NCBI GenBank assembly: GCA_944391465.1
Contig: CALXTS010000006.1
Coordinates: forward strand, 397-64,396
Direction of reading: 5' to 3'
From: an uncultured Alphaproteobacteria bacterium
GTDB lineage: Bacteria > Pseudomonadota > Alphaproteobacteria > RF32 > CAG-239
DNA length: 64,000 bases
Position 1 is the first letter of the stretch. Each line of letters begins with the position of its first letter. This document shows positions 13,586 through 64,000 of this stretch, piece by piece. The translations under genes were made by a program, and so were the position numbers. The notes below the pieces were generated by a model. That model was given only the letters and a program-made list of their open reading frames with translations. It was not told the origin of the DNA and made no database searches.

Positions 13586-13590
13586 AATCT

Positions 13591-13621
13591 AAAAAAAGCC
13601 CCTCAAGTGAGGGGCTTTTTC
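13591..13621. terminator. Bidirectional rho-independent terminator
   Basis: GCCCCTC AAGT GAGGGGC (13598-13615), flanked by A7 and T5. Confidence 0.8.
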
Positions 13622-13699
13622 ATAAATATAATCAATTTGATAATGCTGCAATAAGGTTATATAAGCTCGAAGATATAATTCCTTAATTAAAAAGATAAA

Positions 13700-23587: not shown

Positions 23588-24253
23588 CTAAAAATCCAAA
23601 TTAGTGTAATGCCTTGAAGGTAAAATCCCCTTAATATTGTCTTTTAGAATATCTTTAAACGAGGGACGGGATTTAACTTTTGAATACCAGAGTTTAACAT
23701 TACGGGCATATTCCCAAGGGACATCGCCGAGGTAATCAATAACGGATAATTGAGCAACCGCCGAAACATCAGCCATAGAAAATTCATCACAAGCCAAATA
23801 TTTTCTTTTTTCCAATAACCAATCCATATATTCCAAATGAAAATTAAGATTATTGAGACCGGCTTTTAATATTTTTGAATCGGGAGCGCTTCCAAAAGCA
23901 AACCTTTTAAAAACTTTCTCATACGCAATATTACGAAAAACATCTTTATAAAATTTATTATCAAACCAATCAGCCAATCGCCTGATTTCAGCTTTAGCAA
24001 GAGCATCTCCGAAAATCAGCGGAGGTTCTTGGTTGACTTCTTCTAAATATTCAGAGATAGCATAATTTCCGGAAATTGTAGTTCCGTCATTAATAAAGAT
24101 AGGTAGTTCTCCGGCCGGATTCAATTTATAAACATCGTCACTCAACCGCCAAGGTTCTTCTTCTTTTAAAATAAACAGCATTTTTTTCTCGCTCATCATG
24201 ATTCTGATTTTGCGAGCCAGAGGAGAAACCGGATGATGAATTAATAATGCCAT
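23588..24253 (-). CDS. Glutathione S-transferase family protein
   Basis: Thioredoxin-like N-terminus (SPLARKIRIMM...ELPIF...ISEYL) and a helical C-terminal domain. Confidence 0.6.
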   Translation of the reverse strand: MALLIHHPVSPLARKIRIMMSEKKMLFILKEEEPWRLSDDVYKLNPAGELPIFINDGTTISGNYAISEYLEEVNQEPPLIFGDALAKAEIRRLADWFDNKFYKDVFRNIAYEKVFKRFAFGSAPDSKILKAGLNNLNFHLEYMDWLLEKRKYLACDEFSMADVSAVAQLSVIDYLGDVPWEYARNVKLWYSKVKSRPSFKDILKDNIKGILPSRHYTNLDF

Positions 24254-25332: not shown

Positions 25333-25701
25333 ATGGACGTTTCTCAAAAGTATGCTCAAACAGAGGTTTCCGGAATGAAGCAGTCCGAACTAGAAAGTCG
25401 GGCGCTGATAAAAACGGCATCTCATTTGAACCTAATTAAGGAGCATTGGGATGAAAAGAACTCCGAGCTGGAAGAGGCGTTAGAAAAGAATAGAAAATTG
25501 TGGGCGATTTTAGCATCGGCAGTAGCTGAGAATGAAACGCCTTTGCCGGAAGAAATAAAGAAAAGTATATTAAGTCTGGCAATGTTTATATTCCAAAGAA
25601 CTGTGGAGATTCTAACACATCCTGCTCCCGAAAAATTAAATATTCTGATAAATATAAATATGAATATTGCCAAAGGCTTAGGCGGAAACGCAGATAAATA
25701 A
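25333..25701 (+). CDS. flaF: Flagellar biosynthesis regulator FlaF
   Basis: 122 aa. The segment NRKLWAILASAVAENETPLPEEIKKSILSLAMFI matches the FlaF signature N..LW....D....N.LP..L...I..L as I recall it. Confidence 0.75.
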   Translation: MDVSQKYAQTEVSGMKQSELESRALIKTASHLNLIKEHWDEKNSELEEALEKNRKLWAILASAVAENETPLPEEIKKSILSLAMFIFQRTVEILTHPAPEKLNILININMNIAKGLGGNADK

Positions 25702-25722: not shown

Positions 25723-25759
25723 AAAGCCCCCGTTTAACAAGAACGGGGCTTTTTATTTT
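25723..25759 (+). terminator. flaF terminator (first part of the conserved cassette)
   Basis: AAAGCCCCCGTT ... AACGGGGCTTT followed by TTATTTT. Confidence 0.7.
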
Positions 25760-25781
25760 GTCCTCCTGATAAAATTATTGA

Positions 25782-25810
25782 TTGACATAAGCAAGATGCA
25801 GATTTATAAT
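25782..25810 (+). promoter_or_regulatory. Consensus sigma-70 promoter of Cys-rich gene A
   Basis: TTGACA (25782-25787), a 17-nt spacer, and TATAAT (25805-25810), preceded by the A/T-rich AAATTATT. Confidence 0.75.
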
Positions 25811-25933
25811 AAAATAAACAGTATGGAGAAATATTCCCTAATCCACCCGCATCAATTTTGTCAGGGAACGCTTTTCATATGTCAAAGTGATGTTCTTCAT
25901 ATTGCTTTTAAATATAAATTGAGGAGGATGGCC

Positions 25934-27064
25934 ATGCAGAAGCGTTGGATTAAAATTTTCTTCACAGTAGCTGTAGCAGTATTAATTTCCTCAACAGTTT
26001 CCGCAGGGATTATATCATTACCAAGATATACGGGAGAATTTGCATATAGGACAAGCACCGGAGGAAGAGATGGTGTCTGCTCTTCATCATATCAATATAC
26101 TTGTAGTGGAACCGGATATTCCGGAGGCTCAGGAGCATCTTGCGGTGGAAAGTATCAATCATGTATCTGTACTTCAGATTATAAATGGTCTGGAGGAAAA
26201 TGTGTTTTAAAGAGCTGTTCGGACTATGGATATTTAGCATCAAAAGATACATCGAAATCCTGTACCGAGAAAACACCTCGTACAGGATTAACCTGCTATT
26301 CATGCACAGGATGTGATACCAATGTTTATAAGTATAATTGCTCAGGTGGTATAAATTCTACGACGCAGAGTAGTAATAGTTGTAACAGTTTATATGATGA
26401 ATGTAGCTGTGTGACAAATGCCACATGGAATGCGACAAGTGGAAAGTGTGAATGTAAAACAGATTATAAAGTCAGTGGCACCTCATGTGTCTTAAAAACC
26501 TGTTCGGATTACGGATATTTGGAAAGTTCGGATAGTACAAAGAGTTGTACGAGTAAGACACCACGGACGGGATTAACCTGTTATAGTTGCACAGATTGTG
26601 ACAGCAGTTATAAATATAATTGCAGTAGTATAACAAATGCAAGTGGCGGAGATGGTAGTTCTTGCGGCGGAAAATATCAAAAATGTACATGCAAAAGTGG
26701 TTACTACTGGAGTAACGGAAGTTGTGTAAAAAGTTGTACAGCTGTTTCATGCGAAGGAGCAACAGCATGTAATGGTAAAAGTTGTACAATATTTAAATCA
26801 TCGGCAATAACCAACGCTTCTGAGTTGGGAACGGGAATTGGTAGTTATGCATCTTGTAGTCCAACCAATTGTAGCGGAACCTCATACAAATATGGCTACC
26901 TTCCGACAGCGTGTGCTACCGGTTATGCCGGATATGATATCGGTGATTGTCCAATACCATTTACAACAGATTGCGATACTTTGGGATATAAATGGGAAAG
27001 CTGTTCAGAATCACAACAAGAATTGAAATGCTTATTTAATAGTGCCAAAGTTTTTTGCTATTGA
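25934..27064 (+). CDS. Secreted cysteine-rich repeat protein (376 aa), paralog family of the 2534-aa giant
   Basis: GAGGAGG lies 6 nt upstream of the ATG at 25934. Signal peptide MQKRWIKIFFTVAVAVLISSTVSAG. C-x-C modules include SCGGKYQSCICTSDYKW and SCGGKYQKCTCKSGYYW. The ORF-track start at 25778 lies inside the promoter. Confidence 0.8.
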   Translation: MQKRWIKIFFTVAVAVLISSTVSAGIISLPRYTGEFAYRTSTGGRDGVCSSSYQYTCSGTGYSGGSGASCGGKYQSCICTSDYKWSGGKCVLKSCSDYGYLASKDTSKSCTEKTPRTGLTCYSCTGCDTNVYKYNCSGGINSTTQSSNSCNSLYDECSCVTNATWNATSGKCECKTDYKVSGTSCVLKTCSDYGYLESSDSTKSCTSKTPRTGLTCYSCTDCDSSYKYNCSSITNASGGDGSSCGGKYQKCTCKSGYYWSNGSCVKSCTAVSCEGATACNGKSCTIFKSSAITNASELGTGIGSYASCSPTNCSGTSYKYGYLPTACATGYAGYDIGDCPIPFTTDCDTLGYKWESCSESQQELKCLFNSAKVFCY

Positions 27065-27086: not shown

Positions 27087-28019
27087 ATGAAAAACTCAGG
27101 AAGAAATTTATTGCTAGTATATTGTATTGTGGTTTTCTCCATAATATTTAATCAACGAGTCGCACAAAGTGCATGTATAGCATCAGATTGTGATGCGTTA
27201 GGATATAAATATACAAAAGCAGAATGTGGAGATTCAAATATTGTTGTTTGTCCATTTGATAATTCTAAAGTTTTTTGTAAGCCGGCAGGAAAACCTAAAC
27301 TAATTATTAATTGGTTTTATTCTCCAGGGATAAAAATAGTAAGACTTGATGCTAAAAAGAATGGAGAAAGTACCTATTTGGGTAATTTAAGTGAAGGAAC
27401 ATATGGGTCTTTTGTCTATGAAAATGTAGCTGTAGGAGATGTTTTTTCTTCGTTCAGTGGGTATGGAATGGCTAATGATAGCCCAAGTGGTTCTGAATCA
27501 TGGGAGTTAAAGGATTTATCGTCATCGGTAGGAGCTGTGAATATTGCAATTACAGAATCAAAAGAATATACGGTAACTGTTATGCTTTCTCCGGCAGATA
27601 GAGACAGCAGTCAATCCTATCAACCAAAGATACTTTGTACAGAATTCTCAGGGGTATCAAGAACGCCAGAAGCAGTCAATCCGTCTAAAGGCTGTGCTTC
27701 ATCTAATGATTTTGTAACGTATTTTCAAAATACAACAAATCCTTTAGTTAAAGTTTATACAGATAATGTAAATCCAACAACAAGAACATGGTCAGGAGGA
27801 GTATGTTCAGAATTATATGTTCCAGATAGTCAAACAGCTACGTTCTACGCTCAGAATACTGTAAGTGGATGTGGATATAACTGTAGTTTAAATAAGGTAT
27901 ATTACATGAGTTCAAGTAGTACAACAATTGATAATGCAACAGAGTTTGCAACATTAAATGATGGATATTTCACATCATCTAAGACAGGAACGTGGTATGC
28001 TAACTATAAATGTAATTAA
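27087..28019 (+). CDS. Secreted protein with an N-terminal Cys motif shared with the upstream gene's C-terminus
   Basis: GAGGAG lies 7 nt upstream of the ATG. It has a signal peptide. The segment DCDALGYKYTKAECGDSNIVVCPFDNSKVFC parallels DCDTLGYKWESCSESQQELKCLFNSAKVFC at the end of the 25934-27064 product. Confidence 0.7.
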   Translation: MKNSGRNLLLVYCIVVFSIIFNQRVAQSACIASDCDALGYKYTKAECGDSNIVVCPFDNSKVFCKPAGKPKLIINWFYSPGIKIVRLDAKKNGESTYLGNLSEGTYGSFVYENVAVGDVFSSFSGYGMANDSPSGSESWELKDLSSSVGAVNIAITESKEYTVTVMLSPADRDSSQSYQPKILCTEFSGVSRTPEAVNPSKGCASSNDFVTYFQNTTNPLVKVYTDNVNPTTRTWSGGVCSELYVPDSQTATFYAQNTVSGCGYNCSLNKVYYMSSSSTTIDNATEFATLNDGYFTSSKTGTWYANYKCN

Positions 28020-32623: not shown

Positions 32624-32848
32624 AATTACTAACTCCAAATAAGTTTTTTTGGTAAACACAAATTAATATACAATTAAAATTTAATACGTCAACAATTAAT
32701 CTCCTGTTTTTATTAAATTTCTAAAATATTTTTTAATCCGGATTTAAAATACTTGCATTTAAAGCTATTAGAAATTATAGATAATTTTACAGTCCTGAAT
32801 AATCTGGCTGAGGTCTCAAATTATCGTGTTAATTTTAAGGAAGTATTT

Positions 32849-35041
32849 ATGGAAAATTTATTGTCGAAAGAAGAGATGGAAGCAGTCATCAACGGCGACC
32901 ACGGAAATGTTTTTGCAGTTCTCGGAATTCATAAAAATAAAGGAAGCAAAGAGGTCTTTATCAGAGCCTATCTTCCGCATACAAAATCAGTTGAAGTTAT
33001 TGATTATCAAAATAATTCCTTAGGATTAATGACACAGCTCGACCCTCGTGGTTTTTATCAAATAGAGCTTGGAAAAATTGAAAATTTTGCATACAGATTC
33101 AGAATAATAAACGACATGGGAACAACTTATGTCGCAGAAGACGTATATCGTTTTCCCTCAATTTTAGGAGATATGGATGTCTACCTGTTGGCCGAGGGAA
33201 ATCACTTGCAAATGTATAAAAAATTAGGTGCACATCCCATTGAAATGAATGGTGTTAAAGGTGTTAGTTTTGCCGTATGGGCGCCCAATGCCAAACGTGT
33301 TAGCGTCGTCGGAAATTTCAATAATTGGGATGGACGTGTAAATGTCATGCGCAAGCATCCATCATGTGGAGTCTGGGATATATTTATTCCCGGAATTGGC
33401 GTTGGAGAATTGTATAAATTTGAGATAAAATCTCAAGAGGATTATATACTGGTAAAATCAGATCCGATAGCATTTTATTCGGAAAAACGTCCGAATACGG
33501 CATCTGTTGTTTATGATATCAATAACTATCATTGGGAAGACGATGGTTGGATGAATTATCGAAAAGAAGCTAATTCATTTGATAAACCAATGTCAATTTA
33601 TGAGGTCCATCTCGGGTCATGGCGCAGAAAAGAAAACAATGATTATTACAGCTATAGAGAATTGGCAGATACGTTAGTTCCATATGTTGTAAATATGGGC
33701 TTTACACATGTTGAATTTTTACCATTGGCAGAGCATCCGTTTGATGGGTCATGGGGGTATCAGGTAATCGGAATGTTTGCCCCAACGTCACGTTTCGGAA
33801 ATCCGGATGATTTTCGTTATTTAATAGACAGATTTCATCAAGCCGGAATAGGTGTAATTATGGATTGGGTTCCGGCTCACTTCCCAAAAGACGGACACGG
33901 ATTAAATGAGTTTGATGGGACGCATTTGTACGAGCATGCAGATCCTCGTAAAGGAGAACATACGGACTGGGGTACAAAAATTTATAACTATGGACGTACG
34001 GAAGTCGCAAACTTTTTGTGTGCGAGTGCTGTTTATTGGTTAAAAGAATATCATATAGATGGTTTGAGAGTTGATGCTGTAGCGTCAATGCTTTATTTGG
34101 ATTATTCTCGCAAAAACGGAGAATGGATTCCCAACATCTATGGTGGTAATGAAAATATTGAGGCAATCGCATTTTTACGTCGGATGAACGAGTTGGCCTA
34201 TTCGCAGGTTGACGGAGCCGTAACGATAGCGGAAGAGTCAACGGCGTGGCCGATGGTTTCACGTCCGACCAGTATGGGTGGATTAGGTTTTGGCTATAAG
34301 TGGAATATGGGCTGGATGAATGATACCTTAAAGTATATTTCTCATGAGCCGATACATAGAAAATATCATCATGGAATGCTTACATTTGGTTTGTTGTATG
34401 CTTTCAATGAAAATTTCATTCTGCCGATATCTCACGATGAAGTTGTTCATGGCAAAGGATCAATGTTATCAAAAATGCCCGGAGATGAATGGCAAAAATT
34501 TGCAAACTTAAGAGCGTATTATGGTTTTATGTTCACGCACCCCGGCAAAAAACTTCTCTTTATGGGATGCGATTTTGCACAAGATTGGGAATGGAATGCA
34601 GATGAAGGTTTGCGTTGGTTCTTACTTGATTATCCGATGTATAAAGGAATGCAAAACTGCGTACGTGATTTGAACCTGATGTATAAGGGAAATGCTCCGT
34701 TATATCAGCAAGATTTTGATTACAGAGGATTTGAGTGGATAGAACATTCAAACGCAGATGACAGCGTTATTGCCTATATGCGTAAAGGTTATAATCCTGG
34801 AGATTATTTGATAGCAATTTGTAACTTTACTCCGGTAGTCAGACATGATTTTCGTATTGGTGTAAATGAAAAATGTGCATATCAAGAAATTTTTAACAGT
34901 GATGATGTAAACTACTGGGGAAGCGGAGTAAAAAATGAAAGCTTTATGCAGGCAGAAGATGTGGAGTGGAACTGCAAACCATATTCAATCAGATTAACGC
35001 TGCCGCCGCTTTCGACTATTGTATTAAAGCCGATGAGATAA
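32849..35041 (+). CDS. glgB: 1,4-alpha-glucan branching enzyme
   Basis: GH13 subfamily pattern (GVSFAVWAPNA, GIGVIMDWVPAHF, GLRVDAVASMLY, AEESTAWP, LPISHDEVVHGK). Start set at 32849, after AAGGA. Confidence 0.95.
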   Translation: MENLLSKEEMEAVINGDHGNVFAVLGIHKNKGSKEVFIRAYLPHTKSVEVIDYQNNSLGLMTQLDPRGFYQIELGKIENFAYRFRIINDMGTTYVAEDVYRFPSILGDMDVYLLAEGNHLQMYKKLGAHPIEMNGVKGVSFAVWAPNAKRVSVVGNFNNWDGRVNVMRKHPSCGVWDIFIPGIGVGELYKFEIKSQEDYILVKSDPIAFYSEKRPNTASVVYDINNYHWEDDGWMNYRKEANSFDKPMSIYEVHLGSWRRKENNDYYSYRELADTLVPYVVNMGFTHVEFLPLAEHPFDGSWGYQVIGMFAPTSRFGNPDDFRYLIDRFHQAGIGVIMDWVPAHFPKDGHGLNEFDGTHLYEHADPRKGEHTDWGTKIYNYGRTEVANFLCASAVYWLKEYHIDGLRVDAVASMLYLDYSRKNGEWIPNIYGGNENIEAIAFLRRMNELAYSQVDGAVTIAEESTAWPMVSRPTSMGGLGFGYKWNMGWMNDTLKYISHEPIHRKYHHGMLTFGLLYAFNENFILPISHDEVVHGKGSMLSKMPGDEWQKFANLRAYYGFMFTHPGKKLLFMGCDFAQDWEWNADEGLRWFLLDYPMYKGMQNCVRDLNLMYKGNAPLYQQDFDYRGFEWIEHSNADDSVIAYMRKGYNPGDYLIAICNFTPVVRHDFRIGVNEKCAYQEIFNSDDVNYWGSGVKNESFMQAEDVEWNCKPYSIRLTLPPLSTIVLKPMR

Positions 35042-35060
35042 CATAAAAAAAGGAAAATAT

Positions 35061-37136
35061 ATGGCAAAGTTTAAAATATCTGAAGGTTCAAGTTACCCAT
35101 TGGGAGCGAACTATGATGGAAAAGGAGTGAACTTTGCCTTATTTTCCGCTCATGCCGAAAAAGTAGAATTATGCTTATTTGACGCCTCCGGAGCAGAAGA
35201 GCTGGAGCGTTACGCAATAACGGTTAATGATAACAATATCTGGCATATATACCTTGAAGGCGTTAAGCCGGAACAAGTTTACGGATATCGTGTATATGGA
35301 AAATACAAACCGGAAGAAGGATATCGCTTTAATCCAAACAAACTTTTAATAGACCCTTACGGAAAAAGGCTTATTGGAAAACTTATTTGGAACAAAGCAA
35401 TTTTTGGATATGATACCGAAAGTCCGGATAAAGACCTTTCCTTTAGCACATTGGATTCTGCGCCCTATGTTCCCAAAAGTGTTGTAACGGACGGAAGCTA
35501 TGATTGGGAAGGGGATGAGCGTCCAAACTATAAGTTTGAAGAAACTGTGGTTTATGAAACACACCTCCGCGGATATACGATGTTGCACCCATATGTTCCG
35601 GATGCCAAGCGAGGAACTTTTGCCGGATTTTCTCAAGACAGCGTGATTAATTATCTGAAGTGGTTAGGGATAACGGCAGTCGAATTTTTGCCGATACATG
35701 CATTTTTCGGAAATCGTCATAAAAAAGGATATGTAACGGATAATTATTGGGGATACGAAAGTTTCAGTTTCTTCGCCCCTGAACAATCATATTTGGCGAG
35801 CAATAGTATTAACGAGATAAAAGATTTAGTTAAAAATATGCATGCACATGGGTTGGAAGTTTTTCTGGATGTTGTTTACAATCATACCGGAGAAGGAAAC
35901 CAGCTTGGTCCGACTTTATGCTACAGAGGAATAGATAATCTTTCATATTATACATTAAGTGAGAATAAAAGATATTATTACGATTCTACGGGATGTGGGG
36001 CTTCATTCAATGTCCAAAATCCATATGTTTTGACAATGGTAATGGATTCTTTGAGATATTGGGTCAAAGAATTTCACATAGACGGCTTTCGTTTTGATTT
36101 GGCGTCAACACTGTCCCGCCAACATACGAACTTTACGCAAGAAAGCGCGTTTTTGTATGCAATAGCGCAAGATCCTGAATTGAAAAAAGTAAAATTGATA
36201 GCAGAGCCGTGGGATATCGGACATGGCGGATATCAGGTCGGAGGTTTTTTACCCGGATGGGCAGAATGGAATGATAAATATCGCGATACGGTTCGTCGTT
36301 TTTGGAAAGGGGATATGAATCAAACCCCGGAGCTTGCAAGTCGAATAGCCGGTTCAAGTGATGTATTTAATTATAAAAATCGCGATATCTGGTCCAGTGT
36401 TAATTTTATAACGGCACATGACGGATTTAATCTGAGAGATTTGGTCAGTTATAATGTAAAACATAATTCAGCCAACGGAGAAGAAAACCGAGACGGAACA
36501 AATTCCAATTGGAGTTGGAACTCGGGGAATGAAGGCGAAACAGATAACGATTTGATACGCGATAATCGGTTAGCCCGAGCCAAAGCCATGTTGTCTACCT
36601 TGATGCTTTCTTTCGGAACTCCAATGATAGTAGCCGGAGATGATATAGCGCATACGCAACAAGGGAACAACAATCCATACTGTCAGGATAATGCGATAAC
36701 GTGGTTTGCATGGGAAGGGATTAGCGATTATCATAAAAAATTGACAAGATTTTTTAGAAAAGCAATTCGTTTACGTCGGAAATTGAAAATTTTTGAACGA
36801 AATAAATTTTTTACCGGCCGTCCGATAGATAAAAGCGGATATAAAGATATTACCTGGTACACGGAATATGGGACGGAGTTTAACGGCGGTAATTGGCATG
36901 AAGAAAATCGCAAATGTTTATCATATTGCGTCTATACCGGAAGTCGATTTGTAATGTGCATTTTTAATGCTAATTATAATGAAATGTTATGGCATCTTCC
37001 TGATTTGGAAAAAGAATACAAATGGACATTGATATTAGATAGTTCGGATAGTTTTGATGAAAGTCAAAAGGTTTCAAACGGAAGTGCAATAAGAGTTCCG
37101 GCATGGAGCGTATTGGCGTTCGAAATAAAGAAATAA
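35061..37136 (+). CDS. glgX: Glycogen debranching enzyme GlgX
   Basis: The start YPLGANYDGKGVNFALFSAHAEKVELCLF plus GH13 motifs (DVVYNHT, GFRFDLA, AEPWD, ITAHDGF). Confidence 0.95.
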   Translation: MAKFKISEGSSYPLGANYDGKGVNFALFSAHAEKVELCLFDASGAEELERYAITVNDNNIWHIYLEGVKPEQVYGYRVYGKYKPEEGYRFNPNKLLIDPYGKRLIGKLIWNKAIFGYDTESPDKDLSFSTLDSAPYVPKSVVTDGSYDWEGDERPNYKFEETVVYETHLRGYTMLHPYVPDAKRGTFAGFSQDSVINYLKWLGITAVEFLPIHAFFGNRHKKGYVTDNYWGYESFSFFAPEQSYLASNSINEIKDLVKNMHAHGLEVFLDVVYNHTGEGNQLGPTLCYRGIDNLSYYTLSENKRYYYDSTGCGASFNVQNPYVLTMVMDSLRYWVKEFHIDGFRFDLASTLSRQHTNFTQESAFLYAIAQDPELKKVKLIAEPWDIGHGGYQVGGFLPGWAEWNDKYRDTVRRFWKGDMNQTPELASRIAGSSDVFNYKNRDIWSSVNFITAHDGFNLRDLVSYNVKHNSANGEENRDGTNSNWSWNSGNEGETDNDLIRDNRLARAKAMLSTLMLSFGTPMIVAGDDIAHTQQGNNNPYCQDNAITWFAWEGISDYHKKLTRFFRKAIRLRRKLKIFERNKFFTGRPIDKSGYKDITWYTEYGTEFNGGNWHEENRKCLSYCVYTGSRFVMCIFNANYNEMLWHLPDLEKEYKWTLILDSSDSFDESQKVSNGSAIRVPAWSVLAFEIKK

Positions 37137-37158
37137 TTTTTTAAGTAGGGGAAATTTT

Positions 37159-39306
37159 ATGGAAGAATGCTTAAAACAACTGGCTGAAAAATTAGGAGTA
37201 TCGACCCGTTTTTCAGATGCAGGAATGGTTCGCCGAGAATATGAGGTCGGAGATGATACCATAAAATTTTTTGCTAAAATGTTGGGTTATAATGCAGAAA
37301 ATGAGGAAAAGATAAAAGAGAGTCTCAAGCAATACGAAGAAGCACGATGGAAAAAAACATTAGATGATATCTATGTTGTTGAAAGTGATAAGATTGAATT
37401 TGATGCTATAATTCAGAGTTCGGATATTTCGGAATATATGGAACTTGAAATTAAAAATCAAAACAGTGATGACCATATTCCGGTTTCATATCAAATTGTG
37501 AATGGAAACGCAGAAAAAGAAATAGATGGAAAAACATATGTAAGGATGATTGTAAGAATTGAAACACCGCTTACATATGGATACTATGATTTAAATCTAA
37601 AACTAAAGAATAAGCACTATAAAAGTTGTTTGGCAGTTTCTCCCAAAGGATGCTACGAAAGTCCGTCATTAAATAAAAAAATATGGGGATTTGCCGTCCA
37701 ATTATATTCTGTTAAGAGTAAACACAATTGGGGTGTCGGAGATTTTACGGATTTGAGTTCATTGGTAAAAATCGCAGCCAAGTCAGGAGCCTCAATTATC
37801 GGATTAAATCCGCTGAATGTCTTAATGCATAATTTTCCGGAAGAAGCCAGTCCTTATAATTCAATAAGCCGCTTATTTTTAAATCCGATTTATATTGATG
37901 TAGAGGCAGTTCCGGAATTTTATGCGGAAGATATGAAAGAAGTTCAAAAAGAAGTTGAAGAGCTGAGAAATTCAGAACTTATTCAATACAGCAGGGTTTA
38001 TAATCTCAAAATAAAATACTTGGAACGTTGTTACAAAAGATTCAAAGAAAGCAAGAATAAAGAGCGCAAAACTGCCTATGCCAGATTTTGTAAAGAACAA
38101 GGTGAAGAGCTGGATAAATTGGCAATATTTCAGTCTGTCTATGATGAGCAAAGTAAAACCGTTTGGGGCGGATGGCGTGCATGGCCGGAAGAATATCGTA
38201 ATCCGAGCTCAAAGGTGCTAAAAGATTATGCCAAAGAACATAAAGATAAAATAGATTTCTTTAAGTATTTGCAGTTTGAAGCAGATTGCCAGTTTAATAC
38301 GGCACAAAATAATGTTTCAGATTTAGGAATGGGGATAGGTTTTTACAGAGATTTGGCTGTAGGTGTTGGACAAGACAGTGCCGAGTTTTGGGGAAATCAA
38401 GAACTTTTTCTTTCTGAGGCAGGAGCAGGAGCTCCGCCGGATGCATTTTTCCCCGAAGGCCAGCAATGGGGGTTAGGCGCTTTTAATCCGCGTAAATTAA
38501 AAGAGCAGAAATATCTGCCGTTCGTAAAAATTTTGCGTGCGAATATGAAAAATGCCGGGGCCCTAAGAATAGATCATGTTATGAGTCTAATGCGTTTATA
38601 TATTATTCCGTTTAACGGAATGTCCGGAACATATTTATACTACAATTTTAAGGATATGATAAACATCGTTGCCCTAGAAAGTCATTTAAACAAATGCACA
38701 ATAGTCGGCGAGGCAATAGGCAATGTACCGGAAGGATTTTTAGATACGCTTAAAGAAAGAAATATTCATCCTTTGAGTGTTTTGTGGTCTGAACGTTATG
38801 ATTCGGGTTGGGGAGATTTTGTATCTCCATCTGGTTATCCGCAGAGTGCATTTGTATCTGTCGGAACACATGATATGCCGCCGTTAAGGATGTGGTGGTT
38901 TGGATATGATATTGAACTAAGCTACTCATTAGGGTTAATAGAAACGGAAGCCGCTAAATCGGAGGCATACCATAAACGCGAATTAGACAGATGGAAGTTA
39001 CTGTTTGCGCTGGATAGCAATGGAGTTTGGCCGGAAGATAATAAGCGTAGAAGCAACTATATATACGGAGAAGGATATCCGGAAGGAATAGAGGAGGCAG
39101 TTCATCGGTTTGTATCAAGAACTCCGAGCTCTGTTTTTTTAGCACAGTTTGAAGATATCTTACACGTTGAAAAAAGGCAAAATTTACCGGGTACGGATAG
39201 AGACAAACATCCTAACTGGAGAAGAAAACTTCCCGTTAATATGGAAGATATGGAGAAAGATATAGCTTATGTAAGGAATATCGCTGCAATCCGAAAAGAA
39301 AGATAA
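37159..39306 (+). CDS. malQ: 4-alpha-glucanotransferase (amylomaltase, long form)
   Basis: GH77 pattern (WGVGDFTDL, GLNPL, LRIDHVMSL, GEAIGNVPEG, THDMPP). 715 aa. Confidence 0.9.
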   Translation: MEECLKQLAEKLGVSTRFSDAGMVRREYEVGDDTIKFFAKMLGYNAENEEKIKESLKQYEEARWKKTLDDIYVVESDKIEFDAIIQSSDISEYMELEIKNQNSDDHIPVSYQIVNGNAEKEIDGKTYVRMIVRIETPLTYGYYDLNLKLKNKHYKSCLAVSPKGCYESPSLNKKIWGFAVQLYSVKSKHNWGVGDFTDLSSLVKIAAKSGASIIGLNPLNVLMHNFPEEASPYNSISRLFLNPIYIDVEAVPEFYAEDMKEVQKEVEELRNSELIQYSRVYNLKIKYLERCYKRFKESKNKERKTAYARFCKEQGEELDKLAIFQSVYDEQSKTVWGGWRAWPEEYRNPSSKVLKDYAKEHKDKIDFFKYLQFEADCQFNTAQNNVSDLGMGIGFYRDLAVGVGQDSAEFWGNQELFLSEAGAGAPPDAFFPEGQQWGLGAFNPRKLKEQKYLPFVKILRANMKNAGALRIDHVMSLMRLYIIPFNGMSGTYLYYNFKDMINIVALESHLNKCTIVGEAIGNVPEGFLDTLKERNIHPLSVLWSERYDSGWGDFVSPSGYPQSAFVSVGTHDMPPLRMWWFGYDIELSYSLGLIETEAAKSEAYHKRELDRWKLLFALDSNGVWPEDNKRRSNYIYGEGYPEGIEEAVHRFVSRTPSSVFLAQFEDILHVEKRQNLPGTDRDKHPNWRRKLPVNMEDMEKDIAYVRNIAAIRKER

Positions 39307-40196: not shown

Positions 40197-40826
40197 ATGG
40201 CACGCAGAACAAAAGAAGAAGCAGAGCAAACGAAACAAGCAATTCTAGATTCGGCTCTTAACTTATTTTATGAAAAGGGTTTTTCCAGAACAACATTTGA
40301 TGAAATAGCACGCAGAATAAATCTGACTAAGGGAGCAGTCTATTGGCATTTCAGAAACAAAGCGGACTTATTGGCAGAAATTATAAGGCAGAATTTTAGT
40401 GCAAGGCATCAGAAGCAATTCTCAAAAGAGCGTAGTATACAGACGGTATCAGACTTAAGGAAGGCAATAATTGAGGATGCCGAAGATATAGAAAATGATA
40501 AGGAATACTGCAAATTTTTATTCTTTATCATGTTGCAAATGGAATGGTCAGAAGCTATTTTTCAAAGAGTATCGGTACAAGTGAGAGACATCCGTCGTTA
40601 TCCACTAAAATTATTTAAAGAAACGTTGACTTTATTACAAAATCGTGGAGAAATAAAGGCAGATGTGAATATCGAAGAACTCGCCGAATTAAACATGTAT
40701 ATGTGGCGAGGGATTCTCGGTGCCTATGTCAGTCGAGCAGAGCCGATGAATTTACCGAAAATGATGCTCTTAGGCTTCGATTTGATAATGGACGGATTAA
40801 CAGTGGAGAAAGATTCAAATGATTAG
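40197..40826 (+). CDS. TetR/AcrR family transcriptional repressor
   Basis: N-terminal HTH region (ILDSALNLFYEKGFSRTTFDEIARRINLTKGAVYWHFRNK). It lies immediately upstream of, and overlaps, the efflux adaptor gene. Confidence 0.9.
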   Translation: MARRTKEEAEQTKQAILDSALNLFYEKGFSRTTFDEIARRINLTKGAVYWHFRNKADLLAEIIRQNFSARHQKQFSKERSIQTVSDLRKAIIEDAEDIENDKEYCKFLFFIMLQMEWSEAIFQRVSVQVRDIRRYPLKLFKETLTLLQNRGEIKADVNIEELAELNMYMWRGILGAYVSRAEPMNLPKMMLLGFDLIMDGLTVEKDSND

Positions 40827-41982
40827 GAACCGCGTTATAATTAAAAACGTAGTAATTTTTGGTTTATGTGCGTATTTTGGATGGTTTTTAAAAGGACGAT
40901 TAACACCGAGTGGTGCTATGATGGGTGCCGGAGCCAGAGGAGAGCCGTATGTATTAATTCAAGAGCTTGAAACCAGAAATATAGCCCCGAAGAAGAGTTT
41001 TATAGGTCATGTGGAGGCAATAAAAAGCGTAAATTTGCAACCACAAGTAACAGGATATGTTGAAAAAGTTCTATTCCAAGAAGGTTCTCTGGTCCAGGAA
41101 GGAGATTTGCTTTTTGTCATAGAACAAAAAAGATATCTGGCAAATGTAGAACTCCGTCAAGCGGAATTGGACAGCGCTAAGGCTAATTTGGTAAGAGCAG
41201 AAAGAGATTTTCGACGCCAGTCATCATTAAGCAAACAAAATTATGCATCAAAGGCAACTTTGGATAATGCCGAAAGTGATTATTTACAGGCAAAAGCGGC
41301 AGTAGCCCAAGCCCAAGCAAATTTAGATTTGGCAAAAATAGATTTAGATTATACGGAAATTAAAGCGCCGATTACCGGATATATTGGTAAGGCTTTGGTA
41401 ACGGAAGGTAACTATGTCGGTTCCACCACCCAGAATTTGGCACGTATTGTCCAAATGGATCCGATTCGTGTAGCTTTTTCAATTACGGATAAAGATTTGT
41501 TAAATATGCGCGAGACATATAAAACACATAAGAAAAATGAAGATCCTAAACTAAAAACAGAATTAGTTCTTCCAAATGGTCGAGTTTTGGAAAATCATTT
41601 GCGTTCGCGTTTTTCAGACAATGAAATTAACACAGATACGGCAACTATCGCGGTTTATACGGAATACAGCAACCAAGAGAATTTGTTGACCCCAGGAAAC
41701 TATGTAAATATTCGCATAGGCAGTGGAGAGGATAAAATGGCCTTGTTGGTTCCGCAAGCAGCAATCGCTCAAGATTCTAACGGCTCATATGTTGTTACGG
41801 TGAATGATGAAAACATTGCAGAGCAAAAACGCGTTATTCTCGGTGACATCATCGGAACACAGCAAGTTGTTTTGGAAGGACTGAATCCGGAAGATAAAGT
41901 TATAATTCAGGGTTTACAAAAAGTTAGCAATGGTCAAAAGGTCAAAGCATCACTCGTAAAAGAAGAAAGTATTGAGGAGTAA
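40819..41982 (+). CDS. RND efflux periplasmic adaptor (second copy)
   Basis: Same architecture as 17342-18490 (AQAQANLDLAKIDLDYTEIKAPITG). Confidence 0.9.
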   Translation: MIRNRVIIKNVVIFGLCAYFGWFLKGRLTPSGAMMGAGARGEPYVLIQELETRNIAPKKSFIGHVEAIKSVNLQPQVTGYVEKVLFQEGSLVQEGDLLFVIEQKRYLANVELRQAELDSAKANLVRAERDFRRQSSLSKQNYASKATLDNAESDYLQAKAAVAQAQANLDLAKIDLDYTEIKAPITGYIGKALVTEGNYVGSTTQNLARIVQMDPIRVAFSITDKDLLNMRETYKTHKKNEDPKLKTELVLPNGRVLENHLRSRFSDNEINTDTATIAVYTEYSNQENLLTPGNYVNIRIGSGEDKMALLVPQAAIAQDSNGSYVVTVNDENIAEQKRVILGDIIGTQQVVLEGLNPEDKVIIQGLQKVSNGQKVKASLVKEESIEE

Positions 41983-41988
41983 AGACTG

Positions 41989-44900: not shown

Positions 44901-45090
44901 TTTCACGTTTATTCTCGGTGTGCTCCCGATGATTGTGGCGACCGGGGCCGGAGCGGCAAGCCGCGTGGCGATAGGAGTTCCAGTGTTTTATGGTATGATA
45001 GTAGGAACCTTTGCCGGTTTAGCAATAATTCCGTTACTGTATATCATGTTCCAAACGATTCGCGAGAAAGTTAACGGAACGGCGGAATAA
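41989..45090 (+). CDS. RND multidrug efflux permease (second copy)
   Basis: 1033 aa, collinear with 18506-21682 ([23 protein letters not shown]). Confidence 0.95.
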
Positions 45091-54926: not shown

Positions 54927-54937
54927 GTTTCATCTCC

Positions 54938-57166: not shown

Positions 57167-57176
57167 GGTGAGCCTC

Positions 57177-57629
57177 CTATAATGTTCTATTGATGGCTAA
57201 AGCATTCTTGCTGTTATCCAAAGGAGAGTATTTTCCTCTGGCGCCATAAGATGTTGCATTTGTCTGGTTAGCCGTTTTTGCAATATTGATGATTGTATCC
57301 ATCACGGTTTTTCCGGCTTCCATACGAGTTTTTAAAAGCATCTCGTTTTTCTGCATTAAATTATTAAGGTTAACAGTAGCTTCTTGAAGAGATTTTTTTT
57401 CTTCATTATCAAAATCAGTAAGCTCTTTTTGATTTTTAATAAAATAAGCCACTAAAGAGCGATAGGTTGAGACCAACTTAGTCTTTTTCTCATAAAGTTT
57501 CCCGACGAGACTGATATCATATTTTTCCAAAGCCTCGTTTTCTTGAGTAAGAAGTTCAGAAAAACTGGCAATAACCGTTTTTAGATTTTGCAGTTTAGAA
57601 CCGGCGTCATTAAGATGTAATTCTTCCAT
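57177..57629 (-). CDS. FlgN-like flagellar chaperone (tentative)
   Basis: A 150-aa helical protein immediately upstream of flgK, which is the usual flgN position. Sequence evidence alone is weak. Confidence 0.45.
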   Translation of the reverse strand: MEELHLNDAGSKLQNLKTVIASFSELLTQENEALEKYDISLVGKLYEKKTKLVSTYRSLVAYFIKNQKELTDFDNEEKKSLQEATVNLNNLMQKNEMLLKTRMEAGKTVMDTIINIAKTANQTNATSYGARGKYSPLDNSKNALAINRTL

Positions 57630-57639
57630 TTTTTAGCTC

Positions 57640-57993
57640 CTATCCTTGAATATATCCGTTGGTTTCCATTTCCTGCATTTGTAAAATTGAGCGCATAACC
57701 ATATCTTTGACACCAACACTGCCAGTTTTAGCCATATTGCGTCCGTATTGGTCAAGCAACATGGAACGATATATTTTTTCAGCATTTCCACCACCGAACA
57801 TTCCGTCGGTTGAAATGCCTTCAAACATCGTTTCCATCATCTTAGTAATGAAAAATGCTTCAAAATCTTCAGCCGCTTTTTCAACCTTTTCACGGTCTTT
57901 TTCATTAAGCAAATTCTGAGTATCAGCTATTGAGCTTTTATTCAGCTCATATAGACTGTTGTCATAGCTATTTATGTTTAAGCCCGTAATCAT
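57640..57993 (-). CDS. Rod-binding protein (FlgJ N-terminal domain only, no muramidase domain)
   Basis: The segment AAEDFEAFFITKMMETMFEG...AEKIYRSMLLDQYG is the rod-binding domain pattern. The protein is only 117 aa. Confidence 0.8.
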   Translation of the reverse strand: MITGLNINSYDNSLYELNKSSIADTQNLLNEKDREKVEKAAEDFEAFFITKMMETMFEGISTDGMFGGGNAEKIYRSMLLDQYGRNMAKTGSVGVKDMVMRSILQMQEMETNGYIQG

Positions 57994-57994
57994 G

Positions 57995-62524: not shown

Positions 62525-62647
62525 AAACAAGAAAGAAAAAACAAAATAGTTAAAAAATACTTAACAAAACTCTTGCCTTTTAAAATAATTTTGCTATATT
62601 TGAAAAAAAATAGAAAAAATTGTCAAAATCAAAAGATGGAAAGCAAG

Positions 62648-63124
62648 ATGAAAAAACTATTGATTTTATCCGCAATGTTGCTGATTTCAGGCTGTGCCTG
62701 TTTAGATGGATTATGCGGAGATGAAGAATATGTTAAACCGGTAACCAGATATCGTGTTTCAACCAATACAAAGAATTGCGACTATTTTGATGGAAAAACA
62801 TGTTTCCGTTATGTTCGCCGCGAATATGAGGCACCTGTAGAATATGTTCGTTATCGTGAACCACGCCGTATTTACAGAGATGTTGCATATGTAGATCCAT
62901 GTGAGAACAAGATAGGCGGAGCATATTGCCCCAGACAAGCGGTTGAAAATCCGTGTGAAGTCAAAACAGATTCCTGCCAAGAGACAGTAAGACAGGTTAG
63001 GGAGCCTGTAGAAATAGTATATAAGAAAACCACATATCGCACAGTCTATGAGCCCAAGACATATGAGGATGTTACATATGAAAAAGAGCCGTATAGAAAA
63101 CCAAGCTGTGTAACATGTGAATAG
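62648..63124 (+). CDS. Lipoprotein with Tyr/Arg/Glu/Pro-periodic repeats and 10 cysteines
   Basis: Lipobox LISGCA. Repeated motifs such as EYVRYREPRRIYRDVAY and YKKTTYRTVYEPKTYEDVTYEKEPYRKP. Start chosen at 62648; 62636 is also possible. Confidence 0.6.
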   Translation: MKKLLILSAMLLISGCACLDGLCGDEEYVKPVTRYRVSTNTKNCDYFDGKTCFRYVRREYEAPVEYVRYREPRRIYRDVAYVDPCENKIGGAYCPRQAVENPCEVKTDSCQETVRQVREPVEIVYKKTTYRTVYEPKTYEDVTYEKEPYRKPSCVTCE

Positions 63125-63167
63125 TTTTGTTTCTCAAATTGTAATAAAATCTTTATACAAATAAATA

Positions 63168-63197
63168 AGGCCCCTCAATTGAGGGGCTTTATTTTGT
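63168..63197 (+). terminator. Terminator (first part of the second conserved cassette)
   Basis: GCCCCTC AATT GAGGGGC followed by TTTATTTT. The hairpin is nearly identical to the mlaC terminator at 13598-13615. Confidence 0.75.
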
Positions 63198-63217
63198 CCG
63201 CCCAATGAAATTATTGA

Positions 63218-63246
63218 TTGACTCATTGTGATAAGTAGAGTATATT
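63218..63246 (+). promoter_or_regulatory. Near-consensus sigma-70 promoter of Cys-rich gene B
   Basis: TTGACT, a 17-nt spacer, and TATATT, preceded by the same AAATTATTGAT block seen at 25772-25784. Confidence 0.7.
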
Positions 63247-63247
63247 A

Positions 63248-63371
63248 AAAGGGTAACATGCAACGGAACAAAGTCTAAAACCGCATATTACACCAGACTT
63301 TCAGGAATTTTCGGCGCCACCGAAAGTCTTTCTGTTGCATGTTACCTTTATTTATTATTGAGGAGGCGGCC
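63248..63371 (+). promoter_or_regulatory. Structured 5' leader of Cys-rich gene B (terminator-like long hairpin with alternative inner pairings)
   Basis: A 13-bp perfect stem GGTAACATGCAAC (63252-63264) / GTTGCATGTTACC (63334-63346), followed by TTTATTTATTATT and then the RBS. Inside, AGACTTTC (63295-63302) can pair with either AAAGTCT (63270-63276) or GAAAGTCT (63322-63329). Confidence 0.5.
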
Positions 63372-64000
63372 ATGCAGAAGCGTAATCTTTTATATTTAAG
63401 TATATTAGCGGCAATAATATTTTGTTTTTCATATGCGCATGCCGCAATCCAGTTTTTACCCCGATATCAAGGAAGTTATGAGGGACGAGTTGAAGATGGC
63501 GGCCGAGATAAGGTAGAAGTTTCTTGCGAATCTTTTGGTGGTGTTACAAAAGGCGCAAACCAAATGTGTACAGGGCAATTTATAAGAGCCGGATTGACCT
63601 GTTATAAATCTTGTTCTTGTGATAAATCAAAATTTCAATATACAATAGCCTCGCATCAAGGGTCAGGGAAACTTTGTGAATCACTATCCAATGCCTGTAC
63701 GGATAGTGCCGGAACCTCTTATTCAAACTGTGTTTTGAATACATGTAATGTTCGAAACTCAACATGGATTAGTGAGAGCAGTAAAGCAAGTTATACATCT
63801 AATAACTACACATGTACCACACAAAACACATCAGGAAAAGATGGAACCTGTTATGTTTGCGCTTGTCCATCATCCTGGGCAACGGGAAGTTGTCCGGCCA
63901 ATTCGGCAACCTGTTCAACATGTAAAGCGATAAGTCCATATACAGTATCAAAATTTAATTTGGTATCGTGTAAAGCAGGTTATTATAAGAATGGCAATAG
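63372..64000 (+). CDS. Secreted cysteine-rich protein, third small paralog (5' partial; runs off the window)
   Basis: Hand translation gives MQKRNLLYLSILAAIIFCFSYAHAAIQFLPRYQGSYEGRVEDGGRDKVEVSCES...RAGLTCYKSCSCDKSKFQY...CYVCACPSSW..., open to the window end. It shares MQKR, LPRY-G, GGRD and R-[TA]-G-L-T-C-Y with 25934-27064. It is absent from the ORF track because it has no stop in the window. Confidence 0.75.
   Translation, partial: MQKRNLLYLSILAAIIFCFSYAHAAIQFLPRYQGSYEGRVEDGGRDKVEVSCESFGGVTKGANQMCTGQFIRAGLTCYKSCSCDKSKFQYTIASHQGSGKLCESLSNACTDSAGTSYSNCVLNTCNVRNSTWISESSKASYTSNNYTCTTQNTSGKDGTCYVCACPSSWATGSCPANSATCSTCKAISPYTVSKFNLVSCKAGYYKNGN

What the first reader, a model, noticed from the sequence alone, without database searches (positions are those of the whole stretch)
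25741..25950. Duplicated expression cassette (terminator, near-consensus sigma-70 promoter, long leader, identical RBS/start block) in front of two Cys-rich genes
- Compare 25745-25787 (GGGGCTTTTTATTTTGTCCTCCTGATAAAATTATTGATTGACA) with 63183-63223 (GGGGCTTTATTTTGTCCGCCCAATGAAATTATTGATTGACT).
- In both, the 3' arm of the upstream gene's terminator, an ATTTTGTCC block, AAATTATTGAT and the -35 hexamer are conserved.
- Both continue with a 17-nt spacer and TATAAT or TATATT.
- After a leader of similar length (roughly 115-125 nt from the expected start site), both share ATTGAGGAGG-(1-2 nt)-GGCCATGCAGAAGCGT across the RBS and the first five codons.
- The leader interiors and the coding sequences have otherwise diverged strongly.
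- Nucleotide-level conservation confined to the control regions implies one of two things. Either there is selection on a shared regulatory input (an UP element or regulator site upstream of -35, or a translational operator at the RBS/start), or there has been gene conversion of the 5' ends.
Basis: seen in the sequence. Interest (0 to 1): 0.6.

Follow-up and report, generated by a model that had tools for sequence, protein, structure and literature searches.

The report
Shared promoter and folded leader RNA
The two look-alike stretches are copies of one control module (promoter, a folded leader RNA absent from Rfam 15, ribosome site and start) found in front of all 11 recovered members of a scattered, strain-variable family of secreted cysteine-rich proteins in uncultured chicken-gut alphaproteobacteria.

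Summary
Both blocks are at the stated coordinates and occur nowhere else in the window (0 expected by chance).

It is not a two-copy duplication. I recovered 11 copies of the same 5' module, in four assemblies or runs plus one further sample, each in front of a paralogous signal-peptide, Cys-rich gene at a different locus. DNA depth over copy B's leader and 5' coding end is 10-20x the flanks in four gut metagenomes.

The module has these parts:
- A TTTTGTCC box exactly 18 nt upstream of the -35 hexamer (10 of 11 copies).
- TTGACW-17-TATAnT in the ten aligned copies.
- A roughly 100-nt three-way-junction leader that begins at the expected transcription start.
- GGAGG, then AUG-CAG-AAG-C.

The leader is not simply diverged. 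Its helices are kept by compensatory changes: 27 of 37 pairs changed on both sides, against 15.4 in shuffles and 6-10 in slid controls. No Rfam family matches it. Copy A is a degenerate member.

The upstream terminator is not part of the module. Mosaic leaders show recombination between copies. Gene B with its module is absent in another strain, and the 2379-bp indel is bounded by a 29-nt repeat of a terminator hairpin.

What the leader does is inferred, not shown. It may stabilise the mRNA, or act as a translational or sensing switch. No transcription start could be mapped.

The parts
25726..25754 (+). Intrinsic terminator of flaF (25333-25701). It abuts the module but is not part of it.
   Evidence: stem 25728-25748 plus T-run. 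The terminators upstream of other family copies are unrelated or absent.
25756..25763 (+). Copy A: TTTTGTCC box, 18 nt upstream of the -35 hexamer (about -61 to -54).
   Evidence: Same sequence and same spacing in 10 of 11 copies; absent only in L015.
25771..25781 (+). Copy A: A/T-rich stretch (AAAATTATTGA) next to the -35 hexamer. RAAAT at about -46 to -42 is kept in the ten copies aligned. It resembles a proximal UP element.
   Evidence: The UP-element comparison is from my own knowledge.
25782..25810 (+). Copy A: sigma-70-type promoter TTGACA-17-TATAAT (12 of 12).
25812..25911 (+). Copy A: degenerate three-way-junction leader. P1 is 25819-25830 with 25883-25894. P2 is UUCCCU/AGGGAA with CGCAU in its loop. 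P3 is vestigial.
   Evidence: fold; model R2: 9.8 bits, E 0.044 in 500 nt, correct place and strand.
25921..25945 (+). Copy A: SD GAGGAGG (25921-25927) and start block ATGCAGAAGCGT (25934-25945).
25934..27064 (+). Gene A: 376 aa, signal peptide, LPRY-x-G...GGRD, 40 Cys. It is followed by a co-oriented 310-aa ORF at 27087-28019.
63162..63190 (+). Left copy of the 29-nt direct repeat (a terminator hairpin, TAAATAAGGCCCCTCAATTGAGGGG followed by T's) that bounds the 2379-bp gene-B indel. The right copy lies beyond the window, at L005 14274-14302.
   Evidence: One search shows the deletion form also present in run X4.
63192..63199 (+). Copy B: TTTTGTCC box.
63218..63246 (+). Copy B: promoter TTGACT-17-TATATT (10 of 12).
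63249..63349 (+). Copy B: three-way-junction leader. P1 is 63249-63268 with 63330-63349 (20 bp). P2 is 63270-63276 with 63295-63301; its loop carries CCGCAUAUUAC. P3 is 63304-63329 (UUUUCGG-CGCCA-CCGAAAG).
   Evidence: -42 kcal/mol, z = -4.6. (92-123 bits). (covariation).
63360..63383 (+). Copy B: SD GAGGAGG (63360-63366) and start block ATGCAGAAGCGT (63372-63383).
63372..64000 (+). Gene B, cut by the window end. The full product is 723 aa (L005 12105-14276): signal peptide, LPRY motif and ephrin-receptor-like Cys repeats.
   Evidence: PF07699: 33.6 bits, cut-off 23.1.

Best explanation
The two blocks are the outer ends of one conserved 5' control module of about 235-300 bp. It precedes all 11 recovered members of a dispersed, strain-variable multigene family of secreted, Cys-rich repeat proteins in uncultured chicken-gut Alphaproteobacteria.

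Shown:
- The module consists of a TTTTGTCC box at a fixed 18 nt upstream of -35, an A-rich stretch, near-consensus -35 and -10 hexamers 17 nt apart, a roughly 100-nt RNA three-way junction (P1 of 12-20 bp closing two hairpins), a strong SD, and AUG-CAG-AAG-C followed by a conserved signal peptide.
- The helices are kept by compensatory changes.
- The copies also exchange 5' segments by recombination.
- Whole gene-plus-module units are gained or lost between strains.

Inferred:
- Transcription starts 5-8 nt after the -10 hexamer, directly in P1.
- The box is the site of a shared transcription factor, or an extended UP element, that co-regulates the family.
- The leader acts after transcription. 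Most likely it is a base-paired 5' end that protects the mRNA and sets translation of a highly expressed secreted protein.
- The conserved loops (AGUCUAAA, CGCAUA, the P3 hairpin) and the start-codon hairpin are handles for a trans-acting factor.
For: - Eleven copies carry the module: A, B, L008, L014, L009, L010, L015, L016, L017, L018 and L019.
- The hexamers and the box stay fixed while the spacers differ.
- All ten leaders folded alone close a long P1 around inner hairpins.
- A model built from copy B alone recovers six other copies. The second model also recovers L017, L015 and, weakly, A.
- On seven leaders, 87.6% of cells pair, against 69.7% in shuffles. 27 of 37 pairs changed on both sides, against 15.4 in shuffles and 6-10 when the partner is slid.
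- RNAalifold independently predicts P1, P2 and P3, with 21 of 31 pairs compensated.
- G.U outnumbers A.C 18 to 4, and reverse-strand scores are about 40-65 bits lower. The fold therefore belongs to the sense-strand RNA.
- Depth is 10-20x over 63264-63425 in four gut metagenomes.
- Rare codons are fixed at codons 2-3.
- The box-to-(-35) pattern occurs once per family locus and nowhere else in about 190 kb of related sequence.
- Mosaic leaders are seen in L014 and L019.
- The gene-B indel is documented.
Against: - No transcription start or expression data. RNA-run contigs are sparse and unstranded. Two of them also cover a family promoter (copy B's in X22, a paralogue's in X20), so they may be read-through or DNA.
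- The covariation rests on 7-10 paralogous leaders from a few related genomes, on an alignment fitted to the model. One row (L018) is aligned in a shifted register, which inflates the counts.
- P3 hardly varies, so it is untested by covariation.
- Copy A scores only 9.8 bits.
- The syntenic orthologue L015 lacks the box.
- No regulator or ligand is identified.
- Thermodynamic modelling does not give a consistent link between P1 and SD accessibility.
Confidence: 0.65

Rival explanations
1. The three-way junction is a sensor (a riboswitch or protein-responsive element) that works as a translational ON switch. The pyrimidine-rich 3' strand of P1 is an anti-SD. It is held in P1 when the junction is stabilised by a ligand or protein, and otherwise pairs with the SD and AUG.
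For: - The architecture resembles three-way-junction aptamers: a P1 that covaries, with conserved unpaired motifs (AGUCUAAA, CGCAUA) and an invariant P3 hairpin.
- In L008 and L014 the P1 3' strand pairs with GGUAAUAUGAGGAGGAC over about 17 bp (z = -3.7).
- In B and L017 blocking the P1 5' strand lowers the predicted accessibility of the AUG or the SD.
- In every copy the P1 3' strand carries a UUC/UCC/CUCC run.
Against: - The effect is absent or reversed in L009, L016, L018, L015 and A. Z-scores are about -1 in seven of nine copies.
- P1 of 16-20 bp is far more stable than is usual for a switching helix.
- No Rfam riboswitch family matches.
- No ligand is suggested by the gene function.
Confidence: 0.2
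2. There is no selected function. The shared blocks are only what recent duplication and gene conversion between paralogues have left behind.
For: - L014 has a B-like 5' half and an L008-like 3' half. L019 joins a B-like module to an A-like body.
- 31-mer depth of 10-20x implies many near-identical leader segments.
Against: - Conversion would homogenise whole tracts. Instead the spacers between motifs differ while the motifs are fixed.
- The stems differ in sequence but still pair.
- The features persist in copies whose proteins are 26-39% identical and that come from different genomes.
Confidence: 0.07
3. The inverted repeat is a DNA-level element: a miniature inverted-repeat transposable element (Correia-like), an integron attC-like or recombinase site that moves the genes around.
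For: - There is a long inverted repeat (16-20 bp) around about 60 nt.
- The sequence is multi-copy, and gene B with its module is present or absent between strains.
- In the Mycoplasma vsp and vpma loci the recombinase sites lie in the conserved 5' UTR (PMC2268961).
Against: - The element is always in the same orientation, between the same promoter and the same SD. None was found elsewhere in the 64-kb window plus about 125 kb of loci.
- The arm sequences are not conserved; they covary.
- G.U outnumbers A.C 18 to 4, which points to single-strand sense RNA.
- The gene-B indel ends at a repeated terminator, not at P1.
- No recombinase or transposase gene appears among the called genes next to the copies.
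Confidence: 0.05

Closest known systems
Mycoplasma variable surface lipoprotein families (M. bovis vsp, M. agalactiae vpma)
   Same: A multigene family in which the 5' untranslated region and the signal-peptide coding region are highly conserved. The mature, repeat-rich parts are unrelated between members (PMC2268961, read). Here the promoter, leader, SD and signal peptide are likewise shared in front of divergent Cys-rich bodies, and members recombine.
   Different: - The vsp and vpma genes are clustered in one locus. A single promoter is moved between them by a site-specific recombinase acting in the 5' UTR.
- Here every copy has its own complete promoter, and the copies are dispersed among housekeeping genes.
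- No recombinase or invertible segment was seen.
- The leader is a covarying RNA fold.
- The proteins have type-I-like signal peptides with no lipobox.
5' UTR stabiliser stem-loops of highly expressed envelope genes (Lactobacillus slpA; E. coli ompA)
   Same: A strong promoter followed by a long leader whose extreme 5' end is base-paired. This stabilises the mRNA and leaves the RBS exposed (slpA: PMC10221546, read; ompA from my own knowledge). Here P1 begins within a few nt of the expected +1 in the ten copies aligned.
   Different: - Those leaders are simple hairpins without conserved loop motifs.
- This one is a three-way junction with invariant unpaired motifs, and it is shared by a whole paralogue family.
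- Neither stability nor the transcription start was measured here.
Three-way-junction translational riboswitches (for example the add adenine riboswitch, Rfam purine family RF00167)
   Same: P1 closes a junction of two hairpins. The 3' strand of P1 can alternatively pair with the SD and start region, clearly so in L008 and L014. The comparison with add is from my own knowledge.
   Different: - No sequence or structure match to any Rfam family.
- P1 is much longer.
- No conserved loop-loop complementarity was found.
- No ligand is known, and the alternative pairing is not consistent across copies.
Staphylococcus aureus lpl tandem paralogue cluster ('unit of evolution' spanning 3' ORF, intergenic region and 5' ORF)
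   Same: The conserved unit runs across an intergenic control region into the 5' end of the next ORF and does not coincide with the ORF (PMC2568036; abstract only, seen).
   Different: That unit is in a tandem array and includes the 3' end of the preceding paralogue. Here the copies are dispersed and the upstream neighbours are unrelated genes.

Membership tests
Any curated RNA family (Rfam 15) | A covariance-model match at or near the family's gathering score | tested here: not met
   The gathering-threshold scan of the window gives only three tRNAs. Permissive scans of both leaders and of six other loci give no hit on any leader apart from noise on terminators.
Riboswitch (generic) | A conserved aptamer fold supported by covariation | tested here: met
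   P1 and P2 covary: 27 of 37 pairs changed on both sides, against 15.4 in shuffles and 6-10 in slid controls. RNAalifold agrees. Caveat: few, related sequences on a model-fitted alignment.
Riboswitch (generic) | An expression platform with mutually exclusive pairing conserved across members | tested here: inconclusive
   Strong in L008 and L014, present in B and L017, absent or reversed in the others.
Riboswitch (generic) | Specific ligand binding | not testable with these tools
   Needs in-line probing, ITC or similar.
5'-terminal mRNA stabiliser stem-loop (ompA / slpA type) | A helix that starts within a few nt of the mapped 5' end | tested here: inconclusive
   P1 starts 2-9 nt after the -10 hexamer in the ten copies aligned, so it lies at the expected +1. 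No 5' end could be mapped.
5'-terminal mRNA stabiliser stem-loop (ompA / slpA type) | A longer mRNA half-life that depends on the stem | not testable with these tools
   Needs rifampicin-chase or reporter assays.
Phase-variable surface-protein family of the vsp / vpma type | Conserved 5' UTR and signal peptide with divergent mature regions | tested here: met
Phase-variable surface-protein family of the vsp / vpma type | A switch mechanism: a single promoter with invertible DNA and an adjacent recombinase, or a homopolymer in the promoter or ORF | tested here: not met
   - Every copy has its own promoter.
- The copies are dispersed, and no recombinase appears among the called neighbouring genes.
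- A homopolymer was found in only one copy (G7 with a frameshift, L019).
MITE / Correia-like repeat | Conserved terminal inverted repeats, insertion at many unrelated sites in both orientations | tested here: not met
   The arms covary and are not conserved in sequence. All copies have one orientation and one context, and none lies elsewhere in about 190 kb.
Integron gene cassette (attC) | A promoterless ORF followed by a 3' attC hairpin in an array next to intI | tested here: not met
   The hairpin lies 5' of the ORF, downstream of the copy's own promoter. The copies are dispersed, and no integrase was seen among the neighbours.
UP element of sigma-70 promoters | An A/T-rich stretch from -40 to -60 (proximal A-tract near -46 to -41, distal T-tract) | tested here: inconclusive
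   RAAAT at about -46 to -42 is conserved in the ten copies aligned, and ATTTT lies at -62 to -58. The invariant GTCC is not UP-like. The consensus is from my own knowledge.

The most novel reading that the evidence does not exclude
The roughly 100-nt three-way junction is a new class of sensing RNA. It would respond to a ligand or a protein and, together with the TTTTGTCC site, switch on or off a whole repertoire of variable, eukaryote-like (ephrin-receptor / VSP-like) Cys-rich secreted proteins in gut Alphaproteobacteria.
Probability: 0.18. Interest if true: 0.7.

Novelty: new member of a known kind. Interest (0 to 1): 0.5.

Why it matters
Structured 5' leaders and gene families with shared 5' ends are both known kinds of thing. 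This particular RNA fold, however, matches no curated family. It is tied to one promoter architecture and to one fast-evolving family of secreted Cys-rich proteins in an uncultured gut lineage.

If the leader and the box do co-regulate the family, two uses follow. They give a handle for finding every family member in fragmentary metagenomes, because the module is better conserved than the proteins. They also give a defined RNA and DNA element to test for how such bacteria control a variable secreted or surface repertoire.

The lineage is narrow and nothing has been tested experimentally, so the significance is moderate.

Tried and rejected
- Protein-guided scan of GTDB representative genomes with the N-terminal profile: 11 pattern hits, none confirmed.
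- DNA pattern TTTTGTCC-N8-AAATTAT-NN-ATTGAC in GTDB representatives and in JGI metagenomes: only three unrelated hits. L011 and L012 are high-GC MAGs; L013 lies inside a coding region. The lineage is therefore not in those collections, and I could not define the regulon genome-wide.
- Profile search of the protein database with the 54-aa N-terminal alignment: only one hit passed the E-value cut-off for that database size. It led to L019.
- Transcription-start mapping from public RNA runs: no run found for gene A. The flaF-only contig and the sparse contigs over a paralogous leader and over the terminator-promoter region are unstranded assemblies. They may be read-through or DNA, so they do not locate a start.
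- The idea that the upstream terminator belongs to the module: rejected, because other copies have unrelated, displaced or no terminators.
- The idea that other copies are flanked by a duplicated terminator as B is: no such repeats were found at A, L008, L009, L010, L014 or L016.
- A general switch in which P1 blocks an anti-SD: modelling is inconsistent between copies.
- P3 as an attenuator terminator: the scanner flagged it in B, but the T-run is missing in the other copies.
- Phase variation by homopolymer: seen in only one copy.
The left junction in the window was used instead.
Full report

Yes.
Allowing three mismatches gives no other hit in the window, and shuffles give 0.00.
- The promoter scan finds TTGACA-17-TATAAT at 25782-25810 (12 of 12) and TTGACT-17-TATATT at 63218-63246.
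- The RBS/start block ATTGAGGAGG-(1-2 nt)-GGCCATGCAGAAGCGT is present before both ORFs.
- Gene A (25934-27064) encodes a 376-aa protein with a signal peptide and 40 cysteines.
- Gene B starts at 63372 and runs off the window. On the same contig fetched from a public assembly it encodes 723 aa with ephrin-receptor-like Cys repeats.
- The two proteins are distant paralogues: 26% identity, sharing MQKR...LPRY-G...GGRD at the N-terminus.

**2. It is a family, not a pair.**

A protein search with A found 19 clusters that begin MQK...LPRY.
- L008 and L014 lie on other scaffolds of the same assembly (presumably the same MAG) as the window.
- L009, L010 and L015 come from GCA_965317355.1.
- L016 comes from GCA_965314855.1.
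- L017 and L018 come from one Logan run.
- L019 comes from another sample.

Every one carries the same upstream module, each time behind a different neighbour: thioredoxin, a DEAD-box helicase, SspB with an RHH protein, ProRS, ClpB and so on. L015 sits behind flaF, as gene A does, and is its syntenic orthologue.

With A and B this makes 11 copies, at least four of them in the window's assembly. When DNA contigs of four gut metagenomes are laid on 62400-64000, depth rises from 14, 27, 4 and 11.5 in the flank to 277, 390, 30-39 and 247 over 63264-63371. It stays high in the 5' coding region. The family therefore has roughly 10-20 copies per genome equivalent in those samples.

The source is chicken gut. 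FlaF, FzlA and an alphaproteobacterial two-piece tmRNA in L018 place the organisms in the Alphaproteobacteria. G+C is about 36%.

**3. Anatomy of the module.**

I anchored ten of the copies at the -35 hexamer (L019 was read separately).
- All ten have TTGAC(T/A), a 17-nt spacer and TATAnT.
- The spacers are unrelated between lineages, so the hexamers are held by selection and not by recent copying.
- Nine of the ten, and also L019, have (A/T)TTTTGTCC ending exactly 18 nt before the -35 hexamer. That is 10 of 11 copies.
- All ten have RAAAT at about -46 to -42.
In L009, L010, L014 and L016 a different terminator lies further upstream. L017 and L018 have none adjacent.
- The pattern TTTTGTCC-N18-TTGAC occurs once per family locus and nowhere else in the window or the other loci.
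- It is essentially absent from 596 Gb of GTDB representative genomes and from the JGI metagenomes. The three hits there are unrelated. This shows it is not a generic promoter context. It also means the lineage is not in those collections.
- Downstream of the leader, most copies have GAGGAGGACGG(C/U)C. All 11 have ATGCAGAAGC.
- In this genome CAG is used for 31% of Gln codons and AAG for 16% of Lys codons. The invariance therefore goes beyond the protein sequence.
- AUGC-AGAA-GCRU can form a 3-5-bp hairpin that holds the start codon (seen in the folds).

**4. The leader is a conserved RNA fold.**
- Copy B folds into a 20-bp P1 that closes two hairpins (-42 kcal/mol, z = -4.6).
- Folded one by one, all ten leaders close a long P1 around inner hairpins.
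- The P1 sequences differ: GUAACAUGCAACGGAA in B, GUAAUAUGCGGGCGAA in L008, GUAACGGGCGGCGGAG in L016, GUAAUAUACGGGUG in L018 and AAUAUACGGAAAAGG in L017. Each has a matching 3' strand.
- A covariance model built from copy B alone, with its predicted structure, recovered L014, L016, L010, L008, L009 and L018.
- A second model also found L017 (E 0.004), L015 (15.9 bits) and, weakly, copy A at 25812-25911 (9.8 bits).
- It found L019 at 82.6 bits and nothing else in the window or the other loci.
- On seven leaders, 87.6% of cells pair, against 69.7% in shuffles. 27 of 37 pairs have changes on both sides, against 15.4 in shuffles and 6-10 when the partner is slid by 1-3 columns. P1 has 17 of 20 such pairs and P2 has 6 of 7. 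The six-sequence alignment gives the same picture.
- RNAalifold predicts the same three helices.
- G.U pairs outnumber A.C 18 to 4, and reverse-strand scores are about 40-65 bits lower. The structure therefore belongs to the sense RNA and not to DNA.
- Unpaired motifs are conserved: AGUCUAAA, and (C)CGCAUA in the P2 loop (present even in A and L015). The P3 hairpin UUUCGG-CGCCA-CCGAAA is almost invariant, so covariation does not test it.
- No Rfam family matches any leader.

Caveats: the sequences are few and related, the alignment is fitted to the model, and L018 is aligned in a shifted register, which inflates some counts.

**5. Copy A against the rest.**

It keeps P1 (25819-25830 with 25883-25894), a P2 with CGCAU in its loop, and the start block. 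It has lost the canonical P3.

**6. Turnover of the units.**
- L014 has B's leader sequence up to the P2 loop and L008's from P3 onward. This leaves a 2x3 internal loop in P1.
- L019 joins a B-like module and signal peptide to an A-like body.

Gene B with its module is absent from another strain (L006). The 2379-bp difference is bounded by a 29-nt direct repeat, TAAATAARGCCCCTCAATTGAGGGGYTTT, which is a complete terminator hairpin. Run X4 contains both forms (loose end at 63190). The data do not say whether this was a deletion between the repeats or an insertion that duplicated the terminator. No other copy is flanked in this way.

**7. How it probably works.**

Shown: the conserved parts, their fixed spacing and the RNA fold.

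Inferred:
- A strong sigma-70-type promoter is helped or controlled through the A-tract and the TTTTGTCC site.
- The transcript begins in P1, so its 5' end is base-paired.
- The leader acts after transcription.

I favour a protective and translation-setting 5' structure of the kind described for slpA (PMC10221546) and for ompA (my own knowledge). The conserved loops and the start-codon hairpin would be recognition sites for a factor that co-regulates the family.

A true switch is the main rival. The 3' strand of P1 is pyrimidine-rich and can pair with the SD or the AUG, convincingly so in L008 and L014 (z = -3.7). Across copies, however, the predicted effect on SD accessibility is inconsistent, and P1 is very stable.

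Pure gene conversion, a MITE and an attC-like site are each contradicted by the diverged spacers, the covariation, the strand asymmetry and the constant context.

**8. Comparison with known systems.**

The organisation resembles the Mycoplasma vsp and vpma families: a conserved 5' UTR and signal peptide in front of unrelated mature parts (PMC2268961). It lacks their single promoter, clustered locus and recombinase. It works like a stabilising 5' leader or a three-way-junction riboswitch, but it fails the only membership test available for any curated RNA family. I rate it a new member of a known kind. It is interesting as a well-supported, family-specific RNA motif and promoter site in an uncultured lineage. 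It remains untested and taxonomically narrow.

Noticed in passing
L019 3001-3276 (also L020 and L021): Another family copy, with a B-like module and an A-like body, located after clpB. It is frameshifted at a run of seven G about 126 nt into the ORF, giving a 91-aa product. The sequence is identical in three samples. No other copy has a homopolymer at that place, so this may be a pseudogene or a single phase-variable member.
   Followed up: partly
window 63162-63190 and L005 14274-14302; L006 11895-11930: Gene B plus its module (2379 bp) is present in some strains and absent in others. The indel is bounded by a 29-nt direct repeat of a terminator hairpin. Run X4 holds both forms. The direction of the event (deletion or insertion) is undecided.
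   Followed up: yes
L011 4397-4427 and L012 4120-4150: Two unrelated high-GC MAGs (Gemmatimonadaceae and Pseudomonadota) share TTTTGTCCATTnTGTCAAATTATTCATTGAC upstream of genes. The identity extends beyond the searched pattern. There is no link to this family, and it is unexplained.
   Followed up: no
window 45265-52869 (+): A 2534-aa predicted secreted protein with 204 cysteines and no Pfam match. Its upstream region has a partial look-alike (AAATTTGTCTAAAATTAT) but not the module.
   Followed up: partly
window 26964-27057 and 27181-27277: The C-terminus of protein A and the N-terminus of the next ORF (27087-28019) share a DC-x-LGY...KVFC module. The same module opens many PF07603 (DUF1566 / Lcl-like) proteins in the homologue list.
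   Followed up: no
window 25934-25945 and 63372-63383: AUGC-AGAA-GCRU can form a small hairpin that contains the start codon. Codons 2-3 are the rare CAG and AAG in all 11 copies.
   Followed up: partly
window 63264-63479: DNA contig depth is 10-20 times the flanks in four gut metagenomes, and assemblies break here. The family's leader and 5' end behave as a repeat.
   Followed up: yes
window 63307-63337: The scanner flags the P3 hairpin plus CUUUCUGUUG as terminator-like in copy B. The T-rich tail is not kept in the other copies.
   Followed up: yes
window 13590-13625: A third terminator of the same type (GCCCCTCAAGTGAGGGGC plus T's). GCCCCTC...GAGGGGC hairpins recur in these genomes, for example upstream of L015.
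   Followed up: partly
window 23588-24253 (-), 25333-25701 (+), 32753-39306 (+), 40197-45090 (+), 52965-59119 (-): Context genes: an FzlA-like GST-fold protein, flaF, a glycogen cluster (glgB-like, debranching enzyme, 4-alpha-glucanotransferase), TetR with an RND efflux pump, and flagellar genes (FlgI, a rod-binding protein, FlgK and a 653-aa ORF with no Pfam hit whose N-terminus looks FlgL-like to me).
   Followed up: partly
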